Shown one piece after another: positions 24,399-32,982 of a stretch of 64,000 nucleotides of DNA. Numbering within the stretch: the first letter of the stretch is position 1; each line of letters begins with the position of its first letter. The notes under the pieces are model-generated. The model was not told the DNA's origin. It worked only from the letters and a program-made list of their open reading frames with translations, and searched no databases. The DNA is from an uncultured Clostridia bacterium (GTDB lineage: Bacteria > Bacillota > Clostridia > TANB77 > CAG-508): positions 48,460 to 112,459 of the forward strand of contig CAKPOF010000003.1 of the NCBI GenBank assembly GCA_934169725.1. The letters are read 5' to 3'. The position numbers and the translations under genes are program-made.

Positions 24399-24523
24399 TC
24401 TGAACAATAAATTTAATGAGAAAATTTTTGAGAAAAAAACTAAAAAAATTCAAAAAATGTATTGACAAAATATAAAACTAATATTATAATATCAATTGTC
24501 GTTAAGGCAAACCAGTTTAAAAT

Positions 24524-24611
24524 GCAGATGTGGCGGAACTGGTAGACGCACAGGACTTAAAATCCTGCGGTTGAATAAACCGTGCCGGTTCGATTCCGGC
24601 CATCTGCACCA
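24524..24611 (+). tRNA. tRNA-Leu (anticodon TAA) with a long variable arm and an encoded CCA.
   Basis: Acceptor stem gcagatg/catctgc, anticodon loop cttaaaa, long variable arm and T-arm ggttcgattcc. There is a TTGACA-N17-TATAAT promoter at 24461-24490. Confidence 0.9.
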
Positions 24612-24667
24612 TTAGAACCTCAAGTAGTTCGTAAGATATGCTTGAGGTTTTAATTTATAAAAATTTT

Positions 24668-24770
24668 GTAGTTCTACAAAAAGTTCTACAAAATTGACAA
24701 CATTTTATTTTTATAAAATCTTTATTTAGTGGCTTAAATAAGGATTTTTTATTTTCTAACAGTTCTAACA
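24668..24770. repeat. Cluster of direct GTTCTACAAAA / GTTCTAACAA repeats between the tRNA and the integrase gene. These are putative integrase arm-type sites.
   Basis: tagttctacaaaaagttctacaaaat at 24668-24693 and ttctaacagttctaaca at 24754-24770. The same tandem motif recurs at 30374-30398. Confidence 0.5.
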
Positions 24771-24778
24771 ATTTTTAT

Positions 24779-26011
24779 TTATAACTCCATTTCTTCATCT
24801 TCTTCGTCATCATCTTGACTAGGATCAATAAAGTTTAAACTATTACCAATTACTAAGGCAGAATTTTGTTTTGACTCTGTATCTACATGAGTATATATAT
24901 TCGCTGCAGTATTGTAACTAGAATGACCTAACCATATTTGAATATCTTTCATACTTACTTTATTTGATAGTAATAAACTAGCACACGAATGTCTTAAATC
25001 ATGAAATCTAATAGGTTTTAAGTTATTATTTTTTAGTATTTGATTAAACTTATGTGAAACATAGTCAGGCTTTAGTATAGAGCCATCTATATTCACACAA
25101 ACATAGCCATTGTCATTTAAGTATGATTTTTTAAATACTTTCTTATTGTATTCTTGATTTGCCTTTTCTTCTAAAAGTATTTCTTCTATTTCTGGAATTA
25201 ATGGCAATGTCCTATAACTTGATTGATTTTTAGTTTTATCTTCTGCAACAATTTGCAATTTACCATCTACTTTTGTTTGTGAAATGGTATGTCTAATTAT
25301 AATTGTTTTATTATCAAAATCAACGGCATTCCATTTAATACCAAGTGCTTCACTTCGCCTAAGTCCATAATATAAGGCTAAAAGAACAGGTAACTTAATA
25401 GGTGTGTCTTTTATTGCAACTAATAATTCATTTAGTTGTGCTTTATTGTAATAGGTTGCTATGTATTGTTCCTTTTTAGGCTTATCTATTTTGTCTGCTG
25501 GATTGGTTAGTATCAATTCACATTTTACTGCATATTGCAATGCTTTTCTAATATTTGCGTGATAGCGAAGAATCGTATTACCTTTCAAACCTAAGTTATA
25601 TAATTCTGTGTAAAAATCTTGAATATGATAAGGCTTTAAATCTTTTAAGGAAACATCTAATTTCTTAAAATAGTTATATACTTTACCTTTTACAATTCTT
25701 TCATAACCTGCATAAGTAGTTTTTACAACTCTAGGTTTTATAATATCTAGCCAATTTATCATAAAATCACAAAATTTTATATTAGCTTTATTATTTATAT
25801 CTAACCCAGAAATAGTTAGTTTTTCATTTAGAGTTTTTTCATATTCATGTCTTATTTCTTCAACTTTTCTTTCTGCAAGTTTCTTATTGTTCTTAACTTT
25901 TAATTTAGTGGAAATCCACTTTCGCTGTATATTATTAAATTCATCTTTATAATATAAAACAGCATAATAAATATTTTTCTTTTGCTGTAATGTAGCTGTT
26001 ACCGTTATCAT
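24779..26011 (-). CDS. int: Tyrosine-type site-specific integrase.
   Basis: 410 aa. The C-terminal catalytic region has R...HDLRHSCASLLL...GHSSYNTAANIYTHV (R-H-R-Y). Confidence 0.9.
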   Translation of the reverse strand: MITVTATLQQKKNIYYAVLYYKDEFNNIQRKWISTKLKVKNNKKLAERKVEEIRHEYEKTLNEKLTISGLDINNKANIKFCDFMINWLDIIKPRVVKTTYAGYERIVKGKVYNYFKKLDVSLKDLKPYHIQDFYTELYNLGLKGNTILRYHANIRKALQYAVKCELILTNPADKIDKPKKEQYIATYYNKAQLNELLVAIKDTPIKLPVLLALYYGLRRSEALGIKWNAVDFDNKTIIIRHTISQTKVDGKLQIVAEDKTKNQSSYRTLPLIPEIEEILLEEKANQEYNKKVFKKSYLNDNGYVCVNIDGSILKPDYVSHKFNQILKNNNLKPIRFHDLRHSCASLLLSNKVSMKDIQIWLGHSSYNTAANIYTHVDTESKQNSALVIGNSLNFIDPSQDDDEEDEEMEL

Positions 26012-26049
26012 AAAATGACCTCCTTATTCTCGTGTAAATGTATTTATTT

Positions 26050-26256
26050 TCAATTTTGACTTATTATGTATGAAATTATATTAGCTTTTGGAATTTTATA
26101 TTGTCTGCCTATTTTCATAGCTTTTATTTTGTTTTCCTTAATAAGCCTATAAGCTAGTGTTAAACTAATTCCACCTAACATATTTCGCATTTGTTCAATG
26201 TTTATAATATCTGGGTAATTTGTAAACATGATAGAATATTGTTCTTTTACATCCAT
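26050..26256 (-). CDS. xis: Excisionase / HTH_17-family DNA-binding protein.
   Basis: 68 aa, ...IINIEQMRNMLGGISLTLAYRLIKENKIKAMKIGRQYKIPKANI. Confidence 0.55.
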   Translation of the reverse strand: MDVKEQYSIMFTNYPDIINIEQMRNMLGGISLTLAYRLIKENKIKAMKIGRQYKIPKANIISYIISQN

Positions 26257-26277
26257 TTTAATTGTACCTCCTGTTTG

Positions 26278-26493
26278 TTAATAAACTACTTTTGGAACAT
26301 CTATTGAAACCGTTAATTTTCTGTCTATTTCAAAGCTTTTCTTTTTATTATTATACTTGTAAGCACTAGAATTAAACTTTCTAAAACTACGATCTGAAAT
26401 GTCAAAATAATAAGATAGTTCTTCCGCATCTTGTTTCAGTTGGGCTTTAAGAGCTTCATAACTATCTTTGTTTGATTTTTGCTTTAATTTCAT
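26278..26493 (-). CDS. Hypothetical protein. It may be the C-terminal part of a frameshifted gene that starts at 26684.
   Basis: The open frame extends upstream of the ATG to 26596 and overlaps the 26520-26684 ORF across an A6 run. Confidence 0.3.
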   Translation of the reverse strand: MKLKQKSNKDSYEALKAQLKQDAEELSYYFDISDRSFRKFNSSAYKYNNKKKSFEIDRKLTVSIDVPKVVY

Positions 26494-26519
26494 GTATTCA
26501 ATGGTTCGTTCTTTATGTT

Positions 26520-26684
26520 TTAGTTGATTTTGTTGTTTCCTTTGACTTTTTTCTTCATGATACCTAGAATCTTTTTTATTATTTTTGATACATAGGCATT
26601 ACTGACATTTAATTCTAAAGCAATATCAACAGGTTTTAAATGTTTATTGTAAAATAAATCAATAATTTTTTCTTTAATTGACAT
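26520..26684 (-). CDS. Small HTH protein (sigma-70 region-4-like), 54 aa. Not in the ORF track.
   Basis: MSIKEKIIDLFYNKHLKPVDIALELNVSNAYVSKIIKK... with the ATG at 26684. Confidence 0.35.
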   Translation of the reverse strand: MSIKEKIIDLFYNKHLKPVDIALELNVSNAYVSKIIKKILGIMKKKVKGNNKIN

Positions 26685-26959
26685 GATAAAAGTACCTCCT
26701 TGTGATTGGTTAAATTTTTGCTAATAAATTTTAAGCATAATAATCTAAATGAATATTTATAGATAAATACTCATTTTTAAATTTATTTGTTTAAAGAATT
26801 ATATTATCATAATTAGTAATAATCAATTTCCTTTTTTCTAAAAACTTAAAAATACTTAAAATCAATTGTAACTAGATTGTAGCAGGGAATAAAAAATAAA
26901 TCAATGAATGTTTTTTGAACAATTTTTGAAAAAATTAGATGTAAAAAAAATGATAATAG

Positions 26960-26985
26960 ATACAAAAAAAGTAGCCATATAGCTA
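26960..26985 (-). terminator. Terminator of the repressor gene on the minus strand.
   Basis: gtagc-catata-gctac with a T-run on the minus strand. Confidence 0.4.
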
Positions 26986-27006
26986 CTAAATAAATTTATA
27001 GAAATA

Positions 27007-27243
27007 TTAATCTTCCTCTACATCTTTAAATAATTTATCTGTAAAAAATTCATTTAATTCAATACCTAATCCTTCACATAGATGTAATAAAGTAACAAGT
27101 TTTGGACTTTGACTTTTTCCATAAAATATACTAAAAACTGTAGAATATGATAATACAGAATTAGTTGCCAACTTATTTAATGTTATATTTTGTTCTTTAC
27201 AAAGATTTATAATTCTTTTTTGAACAGCCTCTGAAAGTTGCAT
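27007..27243 (-). CDS. XRE/cI-like HTH repressor of the element.
   Basis: 78 aa, QKRIINLCKEQNITLNKLATNSVLSYSTVFSIFYG. It is divergent from the cargo genes, with operators downstream of its start. Confidence 0.7.
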   Translation of the reverse strand: MQLSEAVQKRIINLCKEQNITLNKLATNSVLSYSTVFSIFYGKSQSPKLVTLLHLCEGLGIELNEFFTDKLFKDVEED

Positions 27244-27296
27244 AAATTCACCTCTTTTTTAACATAAAAATTATATCAAAAGCGAGATGTAAATAT

Positions 27297-27362
27297 TTGC
27301 GAGTAATCGCAATTTTGTTCTTTTTATTTCTCTTATAATATAATTATTGCGAACAATCGCAA
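27297..27362. promoter_or_regulatory. Two copies of a 16-bp operator palindrome TTGCGA-N4-TCGCAA in the divergent regulatory region.
   Basis: ttgcgagtaatcgcaa at 27297-27312 and ttgcgaacaatcgcaa at 27347-27362. Confidence 0.6.
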
Positions 27363-27513
27363 ATATAAAGTCATAATACTTCATTTCACAAATTTACTAA
27401 TAAAAAATTTATTATATAAAAAGAAAAAGAACAACAAAAGTAGTATAATACTAATAAGAAATTGACAAAATAAGATAATAAAAATAAGTAAATAGTGAAA
27501 TGAGGTAATAAAA

Positions 27514-27783
27514 ATGGTACAAAATACAAATAATAGTTTAGAAGAAAAATTAAATGAGTTTATAGGGAAAAATGTAACTATAACTCAAGATGGATTTTTG
27601 AAAAATAAATACTCAATACATAGACTAAAATATTTTATTGAATATGAGATTTTGAATATCACAGATAACGAAAGCCAGAATTATCTAAAGATAAACTTGA
27701 ATCAAATATACAAAATAGAAATCAATGAAAAAGACATTAAATTATACTTAGATAATGATACAATAATTTGTCTTGGTATTTAA
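27514..27783 (+). CDS. Hypothetical protein (89 aa).
   Basis: ORF with no recognisable domain. Confidence 0.3.
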   Translation: MVQNTNNSLEEKLNEFIGKNVTITQDGFLKNKYSIHRLKYFIEYEILNITDNESQNYLKINLNQIYKIEINEKDIKLYLDNDTIICLGI

Positions 27784-27818
27784 AAAGATAGACTACTTAA
27801 GTCTACCTAAATCGAAAA

Positions 27819-28019
27819 TTATTTTTGTAATTTCTCTAATTCTTCTTTATCTTTTTCATCTAGATTATTTAGGCTAAATTCTAATAAAGAAATTACAACT
27901 TTATTAAAAGATAAGTTTTTGAGATTAGCAAGATTTTGTATATCTTCTACTATATTTTCTGGCAATCTAAGAGTTTTGCTAACTCCACTATGATTTTCTG
28001 GTATTCTTAGCTTATTCAT
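27819..28019 (-). CDS. Small putative ribbon-helix-helix (Arc/CopG-like) DNA-binding protein.
   Basis: 66 aa. An N-terminal beta-strand-like segment KTLRLPENIVEDIQNLA is followed by helices. Confidence 0.3.
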   Translation of the reverse strand: MNKLRIPENHSGVSKTLRLPENIVEDIQNLANLKNLSFNKVVISLLEFSLNNLDEKDKEELEKLQK

Positions 28020-28157
28020 ATTTGCAACCTCCTTTGCAAGATATTTTATATTAAAAAATAAAATAAATATGCACCTATTTGTGCTTGCAAATATTTTGCA
28101 ATCATGATAATATAATTTCAGAAAATCAAAAGAAAAAATGAAAGGAATGATTTAATC

Positions 28158-29495
28158 ATGAAGAAACTAAAAGAAGAATTAAAGTATGGTAAAAGAGGTA
28201 TTACTCTTATTTCTCTTGTCGTTACAATAGTTGTTTTATTAATTTTAGCAGGAGTAACAATAGCAACATTAACAGGAGATAATGGAATTCTATCAAGAGC
28301 GAGTGAGGCTAAAGAAAGAACAGGACAAGCAAATGCAGAAGAACAAGTAGAAATAGCAGTAACAGGAAGTATAGGAACAGATGGAAATATTCATTATGGG
28401 GATTTGAAAACAAACTTAGATAAAATATCAAATATAACAGGAGTACCAGATGAAATAATAGATAGCAGTTTTCCTATAGCAGTTAAGGTAGATGGGTATG
28501 ATGTGACAATCAAAAGAGATGGTAGTGTTATATTAGGGGAATATATAGTGCCAGGAAATCCGGATAAAACTACAGGTATATTTAAAGAAACAAGTACAAT
28601 TAATGGTGAAGAAGGAAATAAAAACAATCCTGTTATACCAGAAGGATTTAAGCCTATAAATGAAGGAAATGCCAATTGGGGAGATGGAACAACAGAACCA
28701 CCTGGCATTAATGAAGGATTAGTAATAGAAGATGGTGAAGGAAATCAATATGTATGGATATCTGTAGATGGTGTAATAGGAAAAAATGGAAAAACACTGC
28801 AAAATGCAGTAGATAGAGAAATTATATTAGGAAGATATTTATTTGAAACAGGAGGAAAAATAAATACAACATTAAGTCCATCTTCATTAGGAGGAGATTT
28901 AAAGCTAACAACTACAGATACTACCATATATAGGGAAATGACAGAAAAATCAAAAAATAATACAATAGCTAAGGATATAAATAGATTTATAGATAGTGTA
29001 GAAAAAAATGGAGGATATTATATATCTAGATTTGAGGCAAGCGAAGGTGATGATGGTAAAGCTGACAGTAAATACAATCAAGTTGTTTGGGCAAACATAA
29101 CACAACCAGATGCTGCAAATGCATGTTTAGATTTATATACAAGTATCGAAAGTGATTTAATCAATAGTTATGCATGGGACACAGCTGTTTTATTTATACA
29201 AAAAAACTCAGGAGATTCAGATTATTCAAGACAGGCAAGATTACAAAATACTTTAGCAAATACAGGGAAAGCTACAAATGGAAGTAGTTATGATATTAGA
29301 TGCAATATATATGATATGGCAGGAAATTGCAGAGAATGGACAACTGAAACGTCTAGTTTTGTTGGCGGACCAACAGTTACAAGGGGTGGAGAATATTTGT
29401 ATCGCAGTAATTATACAACTACTCGAGGAAATAATTCAGAGATGCTCCAAAAACCTAATTTTTCGTTTCGTTCCATTTTATATATTAATAATTAA
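28158..29495 (+). CDS. Membrane-anchored protein with a pilin-like N-terminus and a C-terminal FGE-sulfatase / C-type-lectin-fold (SUMF1-, DUF1566-like) domain.
   Basis: N-terminus KRGITLISLVVTIVVLLILAGV (prepilin-like, but lacks Glu+5). C-terminal motifs VVWANITQPDAANAC, YAWDTAV, YDMAGNCREWT (GNVWEWT-like) and TRGGEY...FSFRS (RGGSW...GFR-like). Confidence 0.5.
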   Translation: MKKLKEELKYGKRGITLISLVVTIVVLLILAGVTIATLTGDNGILSRASEAKERTGQANAEEQVEIAVTGSIGTDGNIHYGDLKTNLDKISNITGVPDEIIDSSFPIAVKVDGYDVTIKRDGSVILGEYIVPGNPDKTTGIFKETSTINGEEGNKNNPVIPEGFKPINEGNANWGDGTTEPPGINEGLVIEDGEGNQYVWISVDGVIGKNGKTLQNAVDREIILGRYLFETGGKINTTLSPSSLGGDLKLTTTDTTIYREMTEKSKNNTIAKDINRFIDSVEKNGGYYISRFEASEGDDGKADSKYNQVVWANITQPDAANACLDLYTSIESDLINSYAWDTAVLFIQKNSGDSDYSRQARLQNTLANTGKATNGSSYDIRCNIYDMAGNCREWTTETSSFVGGPTVTRGGEYLYRSNYTTTRGNNSEMLQKPNFSFRSILYINN

Positions 29496-29580
29496 TAACA
29501 GATGTATAAAGAGATACAGTATAAACTATTTTTGTAGTTTAATACTGTATTTTTTGTTCACACAAAATTCACAAAATATT

Positions 29581-29657
29581 TTAGCAGAAAGTATTGACAA
29601 GTGCTAAAATGGGGTATAATATATAGAAAGTTAGCAGACAAACAAAAAGAGTGCTAA
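29581..29657 (+). promoter_or_regulatory. sigmaA promoter (TTGACA 29594-29599, TATAAT 29615-29620) flanked by two CIRCE-like inverted repeats.
   Basis: TTAGCAGAA-N9-AAGTGCTAA at 29581-29607 and TTAGCAGAC-N9-GAGTGCTAA at 29631-29657. The CIRCE consensus is TTAGCACTC-N9-GAGTGCTAA. Confidence 0.65.
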
Positions 29658-29690
29658 AAACTAACAATTAAAACTAAAGAGGCGAAAAAA

Positions 29691-30056
29691 TTGTTAGATG
29701 ATAGAAAAAAGAAAGTATTACAATCAATCGTAGAAGAATATATTAATACAGCAGAACCAGTTAGTTCAAATGCATTAACAACCAATCATGGATTAGATTG
29801 TAGTAGTGCAACCATTAGAAATGAAATGGCGGATTTGGAAAAGGCAGGTTATTTGGACAAAACCCATACATCAAGTGGTATGGTGCTTTCTGAAAAAGGA
29901 TACAGATATTATGTAGATGAGTTGTTAAAAGATGATGACATTAGCTTAGAGGAAATCAAATATATTAGTGATAAATTAGAAACAAAAGTAAATAATATAT
30001 ATGATTTAGCAGTAAATGTAGGAGAATTTTTAAAGTTTGGCAATAAAAAATATTAA
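29691..30056 (+). CDS. Stand-alone HrcA N-terminal winged-helix DNA-binding domain (121 aa). It lacks the HrcA middle and C-terminal domains.
   Basis: MLDDRKKKVLQSIVEEYINTAEPVSSNALTT...SSATIRNEMADLEKAGYLDKTHTSSG...KGYRYYVDELL matches the HrcA N-terminus closely. TTG start after an AAAGAGG RBS. Confidence 0.7.
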   Translation: MLDDRKKKVLQSIVEEYINTAEPVSSNALTTNHGLDCSSATIRNEMADLEKAGYLDKTHTSSGMVLSEKGYRYYVDELLKDDDISLEEIKYISDKLETKVNNIYDLAVNVGEFLKFGNKKY

Positions 30057-30263
30057 AATATTTCATACTTATATAATATTTCTAGTAATTTTGTTTCATT
30101 TTCTATAATTGATTTTTTAATATCTTCTATCGTTCCTGTTTCATAAACAAGTTTGCTAAATTCATCTTGAAAATTTGAAAAACTAGCTCTTATAGCTTGT
30201 TCTGTTTTTGGAGAAATCACTTGGTAAATTTCTTGACATTTCTTGCAAATTATATATAAACAT
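30053..30263 (-). pseudogene. Small CxxC protein gene that looks frameshifted near its start.
   Basis: GGAGG-N7-ATG at 30263 opens a 26-aa frame. A frame +1 relative to it encodes ...ICKKCQEIYQVISPKTEQAIRASFSNFQDEFSKLVYETGTIEDIKKSIIENETKLLEILYKYEIF through to 30053. Confidence 0.3.
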
Positions 30264-30373
30264 AATTAACCTCCAATTATATAATTGTGCGAGAATCTCT
30301 TATACAATAGTATTATAGCATAAATTCCTGAAAATTGTCATTTTTTAGTGGAAATAATAAAAGAATCCTTTTT

Positions 30374-30398
30374 TAGTTCTACAAAAGTTCTACAAAAA
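30374..30398. repeat. Right-end copy of the tandem GTTCTACAAAA arm-type repeat.
   Basis: tagttctacaaaagttctacaaaaat, matching 24668-24693. Confidence 0.5.
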
Positions 30399-30546
30399 TT
30401 TAAAAATTTTTGATAGTTGCCAAAAATAAAAAAATATTGTATAATCTAAATGAAATTGAAAGAAAGTTAGAAAAAAGGCTTATTTGATATTTATAAATGG
30501 TGCTAAATAATGCTAAAAAATTTTAAGTAATAATTATTTGATTTTT

Positions 30547-30603
30547 CTTAAAATCCTGCGAGGGTTAAACCTCGTGCCGGTTCGATTCCGGCCATCTGCG
30601 CCA
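30547..30603 (+). repeat. attR: partial direct repeat of the tRNA-Leu 3' half (anticodon loop to the 3' end) with a diverged variable arm.
   Basis: cttaaaatcctgcg-agggttaaacctc-gtgccggttcgattccggccatctgcgcca, compared with the tRNA at 24556-24611. Confidence 0.75.
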
Positions 30604-30615
30604 CAGTAATATCAA

Positions 30616-30960
30616 GTGTTTTGTAAAATTCCACTTGGTATTATTTTTTTTGCTTTTTTCAGAGTTCTAATGAAAAAGATACAAGGAATACTAACTTTTA
30701 CTATTGAAGATGATAACGGAAAATTTAGAAATTATGGAGAAGCTGTTTATGATGGGGATATTCAAATATTTATGGCTCCACCTCATAGAATGGTTTCAGC
30801 ATTAATGGATAACTTATACACAAGTAGAAATGGCTAAAACACTTGATTTAACAAGAGATGGCATATCATATAATATTAAAATTCTAAAAGAAAAAGGCGT
30901 AATTGAAAGAATTGGTTCTACTAAAAATGGAATTTGGAAAATGTACAATTTTGTCCATCA
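30616..30960 (+). pseudogene. Fragments of a degraded regulator of the divergent-AAA (AlbA_2) / HATPase_c_4 type. The C-terminal winged-helix part is in a different frame.
   Basis: ...GEAVYDGDIQIFMAPPHRMVSALMDNLYTSRNG, then in another frame MAKTLDLTRDGISYNIKILKEKGVIERIGSTKNGIWKM. Confidence 0.3.
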
Positions 30961-31382
30961 ACAAATTTGAAAAATTGTACATTTTTGTATTGACATTAAC
31001 ATATTGTCTTGATGAATGCTATAAAGTATCCGGAAGGCTTCTATGGTGTTGTAAAGAATCAAAGGAAAAAAGTAAGAAAGTTATTCTTACAAATCCTTTG
31101 GATTGCAAAAATAAAATTAATCTAAAGGGAATGATTGCCAAATGGAAAGGTACAGGACACATTGAGTGGGAATTTATTTTAGCAGGATTATTCATTCATG
31201 ATGTTGTTAATGCAATTGAGAATGATGATCAAGAAGCGGACCTTACTTTCATGTTTAATCTTGACTTTCATGATAAGAATGGTAATACATTTACTGCACA
31301 GCAGGTATATGATCACTTAATTAAATCATTTACTATTGTTGATGAAACAGATACAGAATTGAAACTTAAGTTCTGTATTTAA
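30903..31382 (+). CDS. Hypothetical protein. The true start may be internal, for example at MIAKWKG.
   Basis: ORF with no recognisable domain, followed by a hairpin/T-run at 31395-31440. Confidence 0.25.
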   Translation: MKELVLLKMEFGKCTILSINKFEKLYIFVLTLTYCLDECYKVSGRLLWCCKESKEKSKKVILTNPLDCKNKINLKGMIAKWKGTGHIEWEFILAGLFIHDVVNAIENDDQEADLTFMFNLDFHDKNGNTFTAQQVYDHLIKSFTIVDETDTELKLKFCI

Positions 31383-31617
31383 CCAAACCAAAAAAGAAAA
31401 ATCATTTTCTTTTCCTTGAAAAAGGTTTCTTTTTTTTTATTTAACTAATTTTGTTTTTATGTAAGTAGATTACAATATAAACTTTTGTATTATCATTTTT
31501 ATAAAGAATTATAATTGTATAGAAAAATAAGAAAAAATAAAAAAATTTCTTATTTTTTTGTTTTGTAAATTTTTGAAGATAAAATGCATATAATGTAACA
31601 AAAGGAGGAATTTTAAT

Positions 31618-31971
31618 ATGTTTAGTAGAAGACATTGTTGTTGTATGAATAACAATTATTCAGATAATATGTGTGAATTACAAAATGATATTATAGAAAA
31701 AAAATGTAATAATGTAATATCATATGAAGATAATTCAGATAGTTGCGATTGTGGATTTGATGAAGAGCAAAGTGTTTTTCCTGAAAACCCAATGTTAGCA
31801 CAAAGTTATGTTCCAATTCAATATATGGATAGAACATTTAAACCAGGAGTAGGGTTAAAAATGGGAACTATTTTTCCAGAATTAGTAAGCCCCTATTCAC
31901 CTTGTCAATCAATGGAAGAAATAAATTATATTGCTATGAGGAATGAAATAGGAAAGGGGTGCAACAGATGA
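31618..31971 (+). CDS. cotJA: Spore coat-associated protein CotJA.
   Basis: ...VFPENPMLAQSYVPIQYMDRTFKPGVGLKMGTIFPELVSPY matches the CotJA conserved region. RBS AAAGGAGG. Confidence 0.75.
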   Translation: MFSRRHCCCMNNNYSDNMCELQNDIIEKKCNNVISYEDNSDSCDCGFDEEQSVFPENPMLAQSYVPIQYMDRTFKPGVGLKMGTIFPELVSPYSPCQSMEEINYIAMRNEIGKGCNR

Positions 31972-32315
31972 TTATGAATGAAAATAGAGAATGTGGATGT
32001 AATAATGAAGAAATGTTTTCGACAAATCAAGAACAAGAAAAAATAGAAAATGATAGAAATATGGAATGTAATCAAAGAAGAGAAATGGCTATGCAAATAA
32101 GAAATTATGAATTTGCAATTACAGAATTAGCTCTATATTTAGATACACATCCAACAGATCAAAAAGCATTGTGTTTGCACAGAAAATATTGCAAAGAATG
32201 TAAAGAATTAAAAGATAAATATCAAAAAGTATATGGACCATTAACAATAAATTATCCATGCAATAAATGGAGATGGCTAGAAGAACCATGGCCATGGGAA
32301 AGGGGGAATTATTAA
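31959..32315 (+). CDS. cotJB: Spore coat protein CotJB. The true start is possibly the ATG at 31968 or a later one.
   Basis: ...MAMQIRNYEFAITELALYLDTHPTDQKALCLHRKYCKECKELKDKY...WPWERG. Confidence 0.75.
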   Translation: MQQMIMNENRECGCNNEEMFSTNQEQEKIENDRNMECNQRREMAMQIRNYEFAITELALYLDTHPTDQKALCLHRKYCKECKELKDKYQKVYGPLTINYPCNKWRWLEEPWPWERGNY

Positions 32316-32912
32316 ATGTGGACATATAATAAAATGTTGCAATATCCTATTAATATAAAGTGTACAGATCCACGATTAGCAAAAGTTATTATTTCACAAT
32401 ATGGAGGTCCAGATGGAGAACTTAGTGCAGCACTTAGATATTTGTCTCAAAGATTTGGAATGCCAGATCAAAAAGCAAAGGCAATTTTAAATGATATAGG
32501 TACAGAAGAATTAGCTCACTTAGAAATGGTAGGAACTATAGTACACCAATTAACAAAAGGAGCGTCAATAGAAGAAATAGAAAAAGCAGGATTAGGTGCG
32601 TATTATACAGATCATGGTGTTGATGTTTATCCTCAATCAGCGGCCGGAGTACCATTTGATGCAACATGTCTAGCATGCAAAGGTGACCCTGTAGCAAATT
32701 TACAGGAAAATTTAGCTGCAGAACAAAAAGCGAGGGCTACGTATGAAAAATTAATAGATTTATGTAGAGACAATCCGGATGTAATTGACCCATTGAGATA
32801 TTTAAGAGAAAGAGAAGTTGTTCATTTCCAAAGATTTGGAGAAGCATTGCGTGGAGTTCAAGATAAATTAGCTGAAAGAAAATTTTACATGAATGATATG
32901 AAAAAATGTTAA
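32316..32912 (+). CDS. cotJC: Spore coat protein CotJC (manganese-catalase family).
   Basis: MWTYNKMLQYPINIKCTDPRLAKVIISQYGGPDGELSAALRYLSQRF...EELAHLEMVGTIV is the diagnostic CotJC / Mn-catalase motif. Confidence 0.9.
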   Translation: MWTYNKMLQYPINIKCTDPRLAKVIISQYGGPDGELSAALRYLSQRFGMPDQKAKAILNDIGTEELAHLEMVGTIVHQLTKGASIEEIEKAGLGAYYTDHGVDVYPQSAAGVPFDATCLACKGDPVANLQENLAAEQKARATYEKLIDLCRDNPDVIDPLRYLREREVVHFQRFGEALRGVQDKLAERKFYMNDMKKC

Positions 32913-32937
32913 TAAAAAAGTATTTAAAATTATAAAT

Positions 32938-32982
32938 TTAAGGCTTAGTTGCAAAAATAGATGCAATTAAGTCTTTTTTTAT
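32938..32982 (+). terminator. Rho-independent terminator after cotJC.
   Basis: aaggcttagttgca-aaaataga-tgcaattaagtctttttttt, followed by a second hairpin at 32983-33015. Confidence 0.55.

What the first reader, a model, noticed from the sequence alone, without database searches (positions are those of the whole stretch)
24524..30603. 6-kb integrative element in tRNA-Leu(TAA) with clear attL/attR, arm-type repeats and a repressor-operator switch
An intact tRNA-Leu is followed directly by a tyrosine integrase and an excisionase. A 57-nt direct copy of the tRNA's anticodon-loop-to-3'-end, with a different variable arm, sits 6 kb away at 30547-30603. That is the classic footprint of site-specific integration.

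A tandem GTTCTACAAAA motif occurs just inside both ends (24668-24693 and 30374-30398), with further GTTCTAACA copies before int. These are probably integrase arm sites.

An XRE repressor faces two 16-bp palindromes TTGCGA-N4-TCGCAA. The element has no replication, packaging or transfer genes, so it is a minimal island. It may be a satellite or a decayed phage that keeps only lysogeny control and cargo.
Basis: seen in the sequence. Interest (0 to 1): 0.55.

Follow-up and report, generated by a model that had tools for sequence, protein, structure and literature searches.

The report
Decayed mobilizable island in tRNA-Leu
A 6-kb piece of foreign DNA sits in a leucine tRNA gene of an uncultured gut Clostridium; it is a cut-down member of a family of integrative mobilizable elements that kept its integration machinery but lost its transfer genes, which makes it an ordinary kind of genomic island.

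Summary
One tRNA-Leu(TAA) gene (24524-24611) is followed by an intact tyrosine integrase and an excisionase. A 57-nt copy of its 3' part, starting in the anticodon loop, lies at 30547-30603. Tandem GTTCTACAAAA repeats sit inside both ends. Two TTGCGA-N4-TCGCAA palindromes sit upstream of an XRE gene. Contigs of the same species lack the 6 kb.

The "satellite or decayed phage" reading is not supported. The integrase was found in 31 genomes that each represent a different species (metagenome-assembled genomes, MAGs, of gut Clostridia). There it is part of a 7-9 kb family with the order int, xis, 135-aa regulator, xre, variable cargo, Mob_Pre (MobV) relaxase with an oriT-like site, then a conserved right end. 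These are integrative mobilizable elements (IMEs).

The window copy shares only the left 2.8 kb and the last 0.39 kb with this family. It lacks the relaxase and the oriT-like site. Its 135-aa regulator is frameshifted. Its centre holds chromosome-like pieces: a pilin-like protein with a lectin-type fold, and a truncated hrcA with its promoter and CIRCE operator.

Its attR abuts about 400 bp left over from a second integrase family, so elements have accreted in tandem at this site. It is a new member of a known kind. Interest is low.

The parts
24524..24611 (+). Intact tRNA-Leu(TAA). Its 3' part, 24556-24611, is the attL copy of the repeat.
   Evidence: ARAGORN; Rfam tRNA at 61.9 bits; promoter TTGACA-17-TATAAT at 24462-24490.
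24616..24653 (+). Element-borne terminator hairpin just after the regenerated tRNA (aacctcaag...cttgaggtt, then a T run).
   Evidence: Read from the sequence. Conserved across relatives, with changes on both stem arms that keep pairing (cctcaag/cttgagg versus caccaag/cttggtg).
24671..24693 (+). Left arm-type tandem repeat, GTTCTACAAAA-A-GTTCTACAAAA.
   Evidence: 4 exact copies in the window against 0.07 expected. Invariant in 14 of the 15 left ends aligned; L006 has GTTCTAACA instead.
24753..24770 (+). TTTCTAACA and GTTCTAACA repeats next to the int stop codon; 1-3 (T/A)TTCTAA(C) copies in relatives.
24779..26011 (-). Tyrosine integrase, 410 aa, full length. The catalytic motifs RRSEALG, HDLRH, WLGH and IYTHV are present.
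   Evidence: Pfam Phage_integrase 2e-25 plus Phage_int_SAM_3; phrog_1 at 6e-69; 91-98% identical to the integrase in more than 20 other species.
26050..26256 (-). Excisionase (recombination directionality factor), 68 aa.
   Evidence: HTH_17 at 1e-8; TIGR01764 'excise' 30.2 bits against a cut-off of 28.8; 94-100% identical in relatives.
26278..26684 (-). Frameshifted 135-aa HTH regulator (resembles sigma-70 region 4). It is split into a 54-aa and a 71-aa ORF by a 1-nt deletion in the T6 run at 26572-26577.
   Evidence: Relatives have one 135-142 aa ORF; alignment shows the deletion; the same split is called in independent assemblies L002, L004, L010, L011 and L012; weak sigma region-4 hits.
27007..27243 (-). 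XRE-family repressor, 78 aa, with its own terminator at 26970-26987.
   Evidence: HTH_26 and HTH_3; phrog_3 repressor; terminator.
27297..27362 (.). Two 16-bp operators, TTGCGA-N4-TCGCAA (27297-27312 and 27347-27362), bracketing a rightward TATAAT and upstream of xre.
   Evidence: 0.01 expected. Relatives carry TGACGA-N4-TCGTCA and AACGA-N4-TCGTT at the equivalent place.
27282..30214 (.). Central 2.9 kb, not found in any of the fetched relatives from other species. It replaces their module of cargo, relaxase, oriT-like site and DUF6602 gene.
   Evidence: blastn against all loci.
27514..27783 (+). 89-aa ORF of unknown function, followed by a hairpin at 27786-27808.
   Evidence: No hits; terminator-like site.
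27819..28019 (-). 66-aa ribbon-helix-helix (CopG/Arc-like) regulator, divergent from the 445-aa gene. The spacer between them holds repeated TTGCAA motifs.
   Evidence: Weak CopG hit; Arc-like phrog_582; sequence.
28158..29495 (+). Cargo gene, 445 aa: a prepilin-like N-terminal hydrophobic helix followed by a C-terminal domain with the FGE/C-type-lectin fold.
   Evidence: Weak N_methyl and FGE-sulfatase hits. More than 7000 homologues; in the three looked up, the gene stands alone among chromosomal genes. AlphaFold model with pLDDT 86.6. Foldseek matches Mtd, CarF, TvpA and TaqVP.
29560..30056 (+). Captured hrcA fragment: promoter 29594-29622, CIRCE-like operator 29631-29657, and a 121-aa ORF whose first ~107 residues correspond to the HrcA N-terminal domain.
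   Evidence: TIGR00331 positions 1-100 of 338 at 1e-39; 78.6% nt identity to the chromosomal hrcA-grpE locus of L042.
30215..30546 (.). Conserved right end of the family. It holds a stub of the DUF6602 gene (30215-30263, minus strand), the right arm-type repeat 30376-30397, and an outward promoter TTGCCA-17-TATAAT at 30417-30445.
   Evidence: 96.7% identical to L033 and 75-86% to seven other loci; alignment; promoter scan.
30547..30603 (+). attR: the displaced 57-nt 3' fragment of the tRNA, with a variant variable arm and G73.
30604..31001 (.). About 400 bp left from an older element of a second integrase family: its left-end terminator, one GTTCTAATG repeat and unassignable gene fragments. 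Homology with the island-free contig L005 resumes at 31002.
   Evidence: 84% identical to the left end of the L005 remnant. An intact member of this second family is in L053.

Best explanation
Bases 24612-30603 are a site-specifically integrated island. It derives from a family of integrative mobilizable elements (IMEs) of gut Clostridia that target the tRNA-Leu(TAA) gene.

Integration (inferred). The tyrosine integrase would bind the core site in the tRNA. Through its roughly 75-residue N-terminal extension it would also bind the GTTCTACAAAA arm repeats at both ends. It would recombine a 56-58-nt attP copy of the tRNA's 3' part with the gene. This regenerates the tRNA, with an element-borne terminator at attL, and displaces the old 3' part to attR. 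The crossover is most likely in or near the anticodon loop. Excision would use the excisionase together with the integrase.

Control (inferred). An XRE repressor would bind two CGA-N4-TCG-type operators between divergent promoters.

Transfer (inferred for the relatives). Intact relatives would be transferred by a MobV relaxase nicking an oriT-like site just upstream of mob, using the mating pore of a helper element.

State of the window copy (shown). It has lost the relaxase, the oriT-like site and the usual cargo. Its 135-aa regulator is frameshifted. Its centre holds chromosome-like DNA: a pilin-like protein with a lectin-type fold plus a ribbon-helix-helix (RHH) regulator, and a truncated hrcA.

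Consequence (inferred). It is probably still able to excise but can no longer be mobilized on its own. It landed next to, or on top of, the remnant of an older element of another integrase family (tandem accretion).
For: Shown:
- The att repeats, arm repeats and operators are real and far from chance.
- Same-species contigs lack the 6 kb (L005, L007).
- The int-xis module is 91-100% identical across species representatives, while the neighbouring core genes are lower: dut 83-92%, carD 77-96%, ymdB 83-86%. This points to horizontal spread.
- All eight relatives with both att sites mapped carry int, xis and a Mob_Pre-type gene near the right end, and seven of them also carry the xre gene (L032 has no detectable xre). 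Their att structure is the same: the attR copy starts at cTTAAAATCC.
- A conserved motif like the pMV158 oriT (GTAGTGTGTTAC) lies about 90 nt upstream of mob in relatives. It is absent from the island.
- The window shares only 24500-27281 and 30215-30603 with relatives.
- The regulator carries a 1-nt deletion.
- The hrcA fragment and the 445-aa gene have chromosomal counterparts.
- The sequence after attR matches the left end of a second integrase family.

Established knowledge:
- tRNA-gene islands regenerate the target and leave a displaced fragment, and crossover sites fall into anticodon-loop, T-loop and T/acceptor-junction classes (Islander, PMC4383910).
- IMEs, cis-mobilizable elements (CIMEs) and tandem accretion are described in Guedon et al. 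2017 (PMC5704250).
Against: No excised circle or attP junction for this element was found in JGI metagenome contigs or IMG/VR, so excision competence is inferred only.

The crossover position is not settled. The right ends of the window and L033 are identical up to the anticodon loop and then diverge, and L039's attR carries a wholly different tRNA 3' part. Both favour an anticodon-loop crossover. But the four closely related elements L025, L027, L029 and L030 show four different variable arms at attL, which needs extra recombination to explain.

The N-terminal 80 residues of the integrase match no Pfam arm-binding domain.

An unrecognized oriT cannot be excluded.
Confidence: 0.8

Rival explanations
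1. The island is still a working mobile element. It excises and is moved between cells either in trans, through an unrecognized oriT read by a helper's relaxase (as in MGI-type islands), or in cis, together with a neighbouring element after accretion.
For: int, xis, both att sites and all arm repeats are intact. Against L002 the island shows 1 difference in 6 kb, while the flanks show 13 in 11.9 kb and 25 in 2.4 kb. The site hosts at least three element families, so tandem partners are available.
Against: The family's own oriT-like motif is absent. This cargo version was found only in one species, always at the same locus. The regulator upstream of xis-int is frameshifted. No attP junction was found.
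Confidence: 0.13
2. It is a decayed prophage or a phage satellite that keeps only lysogeny control and cargo.
For: Small size, and an int-xis-repressor layout that phages also have. PHROGs hits are limited to integrase, HTH and repressor families.
Against: There is no capsid, terminase, portal, primase/Rep or packaging-redirection gene. DNA similarity to 50,697 phage records is only about 150 bp of the integrase gene. All eight relatives with both att sites mapped carry a Mob_Pre-type gene with the conserved oriT-like motif upstream and no ORF resembling a phage gene; the Mob_Pre assignment was confirmed by Pfam in L033.
Confidence: 0.04
3. It is not an insertion. The region is ancestral and the tRNA fragment is a local duplication or a chance repeat.
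For: None beyond the shared AT-rich composition: GC is 20-33% inside the island, similar to the flanks.
Against: Same-species contigs lack it, with the break exactly at the tRNA 3' end. The same int/att structure occurs next to this tRNA in many species. The repeat is far from chance.
Confidence: 0.02

Closest known systems
Canonical IMEs of Firmicutes with a tyrosine integrase and a MobV relaxase, such as IMESag-rpsI of Streptococcus agalactiae (Guedon et al. 2017, PMC5704250)
   Same: The intact relatives (L013-L035) have this architecture: tyrosine integrase, excisionase, regulators, variable cargo, a Mob_Pre/MobV relaxase with an oriT-like site upstream, and no mating-pore genes. They integrate at the 3' part of a housekeeping gene without inactivating it.
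   Different: The target is tRNA-Leu(TAA), not rpsI. The window copy has lost the relaxase and the oriT-like site. No sequence relationship to the named IMEs was tested.
NBU1 and MTnPi4 of Bacteroidetes, IMEs that integrate in the 3' end of a tRNA-Leu gene (Table 1 of PMC5704250)
   Same: A mobilizable element with a tyrosine integrase that targets a tRNA-Leu gene.
   Different: Different phylum. These elements carry their own mob gene and oriT. The resemblance is functional only; homology was not tested.
CIMEs (cis-mobilizable elements) and tandem accretion, as in ICESt1-related islands (PMC5704250, section 2.3)
   Same: A decayed derivative of a transferable element that is still flanked by att sites and lies in tandem with another element's remnant at the same target.
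   Different: A CIME is defined as having also lost its integration genes. Here int and xis are intact. The roughly 400-bp older remnant has lost even its own attR.
tRNA-gene islands with an anticodon-centred attP, class A in Islander (PMC4383910)
   Same: An intact tRNA gene, a displaced 3' fragment in the same orientation, and an integrase next to the tRNA gene. The fragment starts in the anticodon loop.
   Different: None in kind. The displaced fragment carries a different variable arm and G73, which probably came from the earlier occupant.
Phage satellites (PICI-like) and cryptic prophages
   Same: Small size, with int, xis and a repressor facing operators.
   Different: No primase/Rep, no packaging or capsid-redirection genes. 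The relatives carry relaxases.

Membership tests
Integrative mobilizable element (IME, as defined by Guedon et al. 2017) | Encodes its own site-specific recombinase | tested here: met
   Full-length tyrosine integrase and an excisionase.
Integrative mobilizable element (IME, as defined by Guedon et al. 2017) | Flanked by attL and attR at a specific target | tested here: met
   56- and 57-nt copies of the tRNA 3' part at 24556-24611 and 30547-30603. The same site is used in many species.
Integrative mobilizable element (IME, as defined by Guedon et al. 2017) | Carries its own relaxase and/or an oriT | tested here: not met
   No relaxase in Pfam, NCBIfam or PHROGs. The family's oriT-like motif is absent. 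A cryptic oriT cannot be excluded.
Integrative mobilizable element (IME, as defined by Guedon et al. 2017) | No mating-pore (T4SS) genes | tested here: met
   Only ten small-to-medium ORFs, none with T4SS domains.
Integrative mobilizable element (IME, as defined by Guedon et al. 2017) | Excision and mobilization demonstrated | not testable with these tools
   Two attP-junction searches found nothing. This needs PCR and mating assays.
The tRNA-Leu(TAA) tyrosine-integrase/MobV element family found here (L013-L035) | Integrase and Xis closely related to the family's | tested here: met
   int 91-98% and xis 94-100% identical.
The tRNA-Leu(TAA) tyrosine-integrase/MobV element family found here (L013-L035) | Invariant tandem GTTCTACAAAA arm repeats at both ends, plus the conserved right-end block | tested here: met
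   Alignments of 15 left ends and 9 right ends; blastn.
The tRNA-Leu(TAA) tyrosine-integrase/MobV element family found here (L013-L035) | Mob_Pre relaxase with an upstream oriT-like site | tested here: not met
   A Mob_Pre-type ORF with the conserved oriT-like motif upstream is present in L013, L014, L016, L019, L022, L025, L032 and L033, and Pfam confirmed Mob_Pre in L033. It is absent from the window.
The tRNA-Leu(TAA) tyrosine-integrase/MobV element family found here (L013-L035) | Intact 135-aa HTH regulator upstream of xis | tested here: not met
   A 1-nt deletion splits it into 54-aa and 71-aa ORFs.
CIME (cis-mobilizable element) | Retains attL and attR | tested here: met
CIME (cis-mobilizable element) | Has lost both integration and transfer genes | tested here: not met
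   The transfer genes are lost, but int and xis are intact.
Prophage remnant or phage satellite | Phage structural, packaging or replication genes, or satellite hallmarks (primase-Rep, capsid redirection) | tested here: not met
   PHROGs hits are limited to integrase and regulators. Only about 150 bp of the integrase gene is similar to any phage record.
tRNA-gene island with anticodon-centred attP (Islander class A) | Intact tRNA gene, a same-orientation 3' fragment starting in the anticodon loop, and an adjacent integrase | tested here: met
   The actual crossover point is inferred, not shown.

The most novel reading that the evidence does not exclude
The island is not dead. With intact int, xis, att sites and arm repeats it still excises, and it spreads by cis-mobilization with neighbouring elements in a three-family integration hot spot. 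Its captured hrcA promoter, CIRCE operator and HrcA N-terminal DNA-binding domain act as a decoy or dominant-negative modulator of the host heat-shock regulon. The pilin-like lectin-fold protein changes what the cell surface binds.
Probability: 0.08. Interest if true: 0.5.

Novelty: new member of a known kind. Interest (0 to 1): 0.22.

Why it matters
The practical value is modest.

- It documents a family of small MobV-type IMEs that, as far as I searched, has not been described. The family is specific for tRNA-Leu(TAA) in uncultured gut Clostridia of humans and animals, and its recombination module is more conserved than the host genes around it.
- It shows one locus where three element families pile up and decay.
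- For annotation, the 6 kb should be labelled a relaxase-less IME derivative, not a prophage or satellite. The 121-aa 'HrcA' should be labelled a gene fragment.
- The family's invariant arm repeats, and operators that vary together with the repressor, would make a convenient system for studying integrase arm-site and repressor specificity.

Tried and rejected
1. attP junction. I searched for the right end joined to the tRNA segment joined to the left end, in JGI metagenome contigs and IMG/VR. Both gave 0 hits. This is uninformative about activity.

2. Pre-integration state. I searched for a full tRNA followed directly by the older element's left end, to read which variable arm it carried. The only hit was an intact second-family element in another species with the standard arm (L053). 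The crossover position stays unresolved.

3. 'Secondary-site' junctions. In L018, L024, L031, L034 and L039 the left end is preceded by only GCACCA, which looked like evidence for a 3'-end crossover. I rejected this. In L018 (and L024, which shares its flank) the sequence to the left is the right end of a serine-recombinase element inserted at the tRNA 3' end; I assume something similar for L031, L034 and L039, whose flanks differ and were not examined. What I first took for the native flank (ACCAacgacgtatctg...) is that element's left end.

4. L029 as a circular attP contig. It has no terminal overlap. Its left 1.3 kb matches only weakly (71% over about 220 nt) the sequence that precedes a partial tRNA copy in L034, which I read as another element's right end, so this is a tandem junction.

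5. Diversity-generating retroelement (DGR). The lectin-type fold of the 445-aa protein resembles DGR variable proteins, but the 64-kb window holds no template repeat; a reverse-transcriptase gene was not searched for. The 34-nt repeat 29304/29994 is not adenine-specific and is probably chance.

6. Pfam arm-binding domain in the integrase N-terminus: no match.

7. Known phages and plasmids: only the catalytic region of the integrase gene matches.

Full report
**Observation**

The window holds a single tRNA gene, tRNA-Leu(TAA) at 24524-24611. Rfam agrees at 61.9 bits and finds nothing else between 22000 and 34000.

Bases 30547-30603 repeat the tRNA from the anticodon loop to the CCA end. Two blocks of 14 and 27 nt are exact. 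Between them lies a different, well-formed variable arm, and the discriminator base is G instead of A. The 24-nt T-arm/acceptor core occurs exactly twice, against 0.00 expected. No 5' half precedes the copy.

GTTCTACAAAA occurs four times exactly in 64 kb, against 0.07 expected. The copies form two tandem pairs just inside the two ends. TTGCGA-N4-TCGCAA occurs only at 27297 and 27347, against 0.01 expected.

There is a full-length tyrosine integrase, an excisionase that passes the TIGR01764 cut-off, and an XRE protein. No replication, packaging or transfer gene is present.

**It is an insertion**

I looked up the exact SpoVS and integrase proteins in public assemblies.

- Several contigs of the same species carry the identical island (L002, L004, L010).
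- L005 and L007 are 99.4-99.9% identical to the window up to the last base of the tRNA and lack the 6 kb.
- In L005 the tRNA is followed by a 118-aa remnant of a different integrase. Homology with the window resumes at 31002.
- In L007 the tRNA is followed by an element with a serine recombinase, a Mob_Pre protein and TnpV.

**What family it belongs to**

A scan of one genome per species found the integrase in 31 loci. All are MAGs of uncultured gut Clostridia.

In loci where the neighbours are visible, int is 91-98% and xis 94-100% identical to the window. The adjacent core genes are lower: dut 83-92%, carD 77-96%, ymdB 83-86%. The recombination module therefore moves between species.

Eight loci contain both att sites. 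Their islands are 6.8-9.3 kb. The gene order is int, xis, one 135-142-aa HTH protein, xre, a divergent 98-111-aa gene, a second XRE, variable cargo, a ~370-410-aa Mob_Pre-type gene and, in L025 and L033, a DUF6602 protein before the right end; L032 has no detectable xre or second XRE. Pfam scans of the L033 proteins gave 7e-45 for the Mob_Pre (MobV) relaxase and also identified the DUF6602 protein.

About 90 nt upstream of mob lies a conserved inverted repeat with GTAGTGTGTTAC. This resembles the nick region of pMV158-type oriTs, a comparison I make from memory.

These are canonical IMEs in the sense of Guedon et al. 2017 (PMC5704250).

**What the window copy has kept and lost**

blastn shows that the window shares only two stretches with these relatives:

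- 24500-27281, covering the tRNA end, arm repeats, int, xis, regulator and xre, at 82-94% identity.
- 30215-30603, the right end, at 96.7% identity with L033. The last ~230 bp of it (30371/30375-30603) are 75-86% identical to six others (L013, L014, L016, L019, L022, L032), and the whole block is 83% identical to L025.

The central 2.9 kb is not found in any of the fetched relatives from other species. The relaxase gene and the oriT-like motif are absent. The 135-aa regulator is split by a 1-nt deletion in a T6 run, and the same split is called in independent assemblies. Only the first ~16 codons of the DUF6602 gene remain.

The centre holds the following:

- An 89-aa ORF of unknown function.
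- A ribbon-helix-helix regulator.
- A 445-aa protein. It has more than 7000 homologues; in the three looked up, the gene stands alone among chromosomal genes. Its AlphaFold model (pLDDT 86.6) has an N-terminal pilin-like helix and a domain with the FGE/C-type-lectin fold. The closest structures are Mtd, CarF, TvpA and TaqVP. No template repeat lies in the window.
- A 450-bp copy of a genuine hrcA promoter, CIRCE operator and first ~107 codons. It is 78.6% identical to the chromosomal hrcA-grpE locus of L042 and matches TIGR00331 positions 1-100 of 338. The conserved SGRIPS motif has changed to SGMVLS.

The island is therefore a deletion or replacement derivative that picked up chromosomal pieces.

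**Arm sites and operators**

GTTCTACAAAA(A)GTTCTACAAAA is invariant at both ends in every member aligned, at conserved distances from the core. The 48%-identical integrase of L006 is flanked by GTTCTAACA repeats. The second integrase family has GTTCTAAT(G) repeats. This change of repeat with integrase supports the arm-site reading. However, the integrase N-terminus matches no Pfam arm-binding model.

Relatives carry TGACGA-N4-TCGTCA and AACGA-N4-TCGTT around a rightward TTGCAA...TATAAT promoter, at the place where the window has its two TTGCGA-N4-TCGCAA sites. The window's XRE is only about 75% identical to theirs. This looks like a change of repressor-operator specificity on a conserved layout.

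**The odd variable arm and what lies beyond attR**

In every fetched contig where this tRNA gene was seen intact, apart from L022, L025 and L027, it has the arm gcggttgaataaaccgt; those contigs include the same-species L005 and L007.

The window's attR fragment has a different arm and G73. It is followed not by host DNA but by a terminator and a GTTCTAATG repeat. These match the left end of the second integrase family: 84% identity to L005, and an intact element in L053.

The simplest history has three steps. A second-family element integrated first and supplied its own tRNA 3' part. It then decayed to about 400 bp (30604-31001). The present element then integrated into the regenerated tRNA and displaced that 3' part. 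This is tandem accretion as described for IMEs and CIMEs (PMC5704250).

This history assumes a crossover in or near the anticodon loop, Islander's class A (PMC4383910). Three observations fit:

- The repeat starts in the anticodon loop.
- The right ends of the window and L033 are identical up to that point and then differ.
- L039's attR carries a wholly different tRNA 3' part, with T-stem changes on both strands that keep pairing.

Against it, four closely related elements show four different arms at attL. I leave the crossover position at about 60:40 in favour of the anticodon loop.

**Mechanism**

Shown:

- The insertion and its ends.
- Intact int and xis.
- Conserved repeats.
- Loss of the mobilization module.
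- The frameshift in the regulator.
- The chromosomal origin of the central genes.

Inferred:

- Int binds the arm repeats and the core.
- Int and Xis carry out excision.
- XRE represses at the two operators.
- Relatives are mobilized by MobV at the oriT-like site through a helper's mating pore.
- The window copy can probably excise but cannot be transferred on its own.

No attP junction was found in two collections.

**Comparison and verdict**

The island works like a canonical tyrosine-integrase/MobV IME that has lost its mob module.

- It fails the IME criterion of carrying a relaxase or oriT.
- It fails the CIME criterion of having lost its integration genes.
- It meets the criteria of a class A tRNA-gene island.
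- It is not a prophage or satellite.
- No plasmid record is similar beyond the integrase gene.

It is a new member of a known kind. Interest is low.

Noticed in passing
L007 11888-17078; also L013, L014, L016, L019, L025, L039 (after attR) and L018 (between the tRNA and the IME): A third element type sits immediately after ...CTGCACCA of the tRNA or of its partial copy. In L007 it encodes a 621-aa serine recombinase, a Mob_Pre protein and TnpV. Its left end reads acgacgtatctgttcgaac, and its right end is an imperfect inverted copy of that. It resembles Tn4451-type elements (comparison from memory). With it, tRNA-Leu(TAA) becomes a hot spot for three element families.
   Followed up: partly
L053 1-2047; L005 11890-12650; window 30604-31001: A second tyrosine-integrase family targets the same tRNA. 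Its integrase remnant in L005 is 53% identical to the window integrase over the 104 residues that align. Its left end reads tagtaatatcaag..., followed by a terminator and GTTCTAAT repeats. It is intact in L053, reduced to a 118-aa integrase stub in L005, and reduced to about 400 bp in the window.
   Followed up: partly
L033 (as stored) 6453-7807; same cluster in L025: Cargo of two relatives: a 71-aa Cys-rich peptide (...CSCNCSSGCSACSSSC), a radical SAM/SPASM enzyme and a methyltransferase. This looks like a RiPP-like peptide-maturation cluster riding on an IME.
   Followed up: partly
window 30417-30445 (+): An outward-facing promoter, TTGCCA-17-TATAAT, is conserved in all nine right ends aligned. 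It reads across about 100 nt into the partial tRNA copy; in a circular form it would read into attP and the element's terminator. Its function is unknown.
   Followed up: no
window 28158-29495: The 445-aa cargo protein belongs to a very large family (more than 7000 homologues) of proteins in gut Clostridia that have a pilin-like N-terminus. Its C-terminal domain has the lectin-type fold used by the variable proteins of diversity-generating retroelements. No template repeat lies in the window; a reverse-transcriptase gene was not searched for.
   Followed up: partly
window 29560-30056: A truncated hrcA (121 aa; HrcA residues 1 to ~107) with an intact-looking promoter and a CIRCE-like operator lies inside the island. 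It is probably a captured pseudogene. A decoy or dominant-negative role is not excluded.
   Followed up: partly
window 30604-32978 compared with L002: The 2.4 kb to the right of attR differs from L002 at 25 positions (about 1%). The 11.9-kb left flank differs at 13 positions and the 6-kb island at 1. The right flank is a locally divergent, probably recombined zone. The N-terminus of the 159-aa ORF (30903-31382) is junk compared with the 162-aa protein of L005.
   Followed up: partly
L029 (reverse complement) 1200-1420: In another species there is an attP-like junction: one element's right end, then the 58-nt tRNA segment, then the left end of an IME of this family. The contig has no terminal overlap, so this is a tandem array rather than a circle.
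   Followed up: yes
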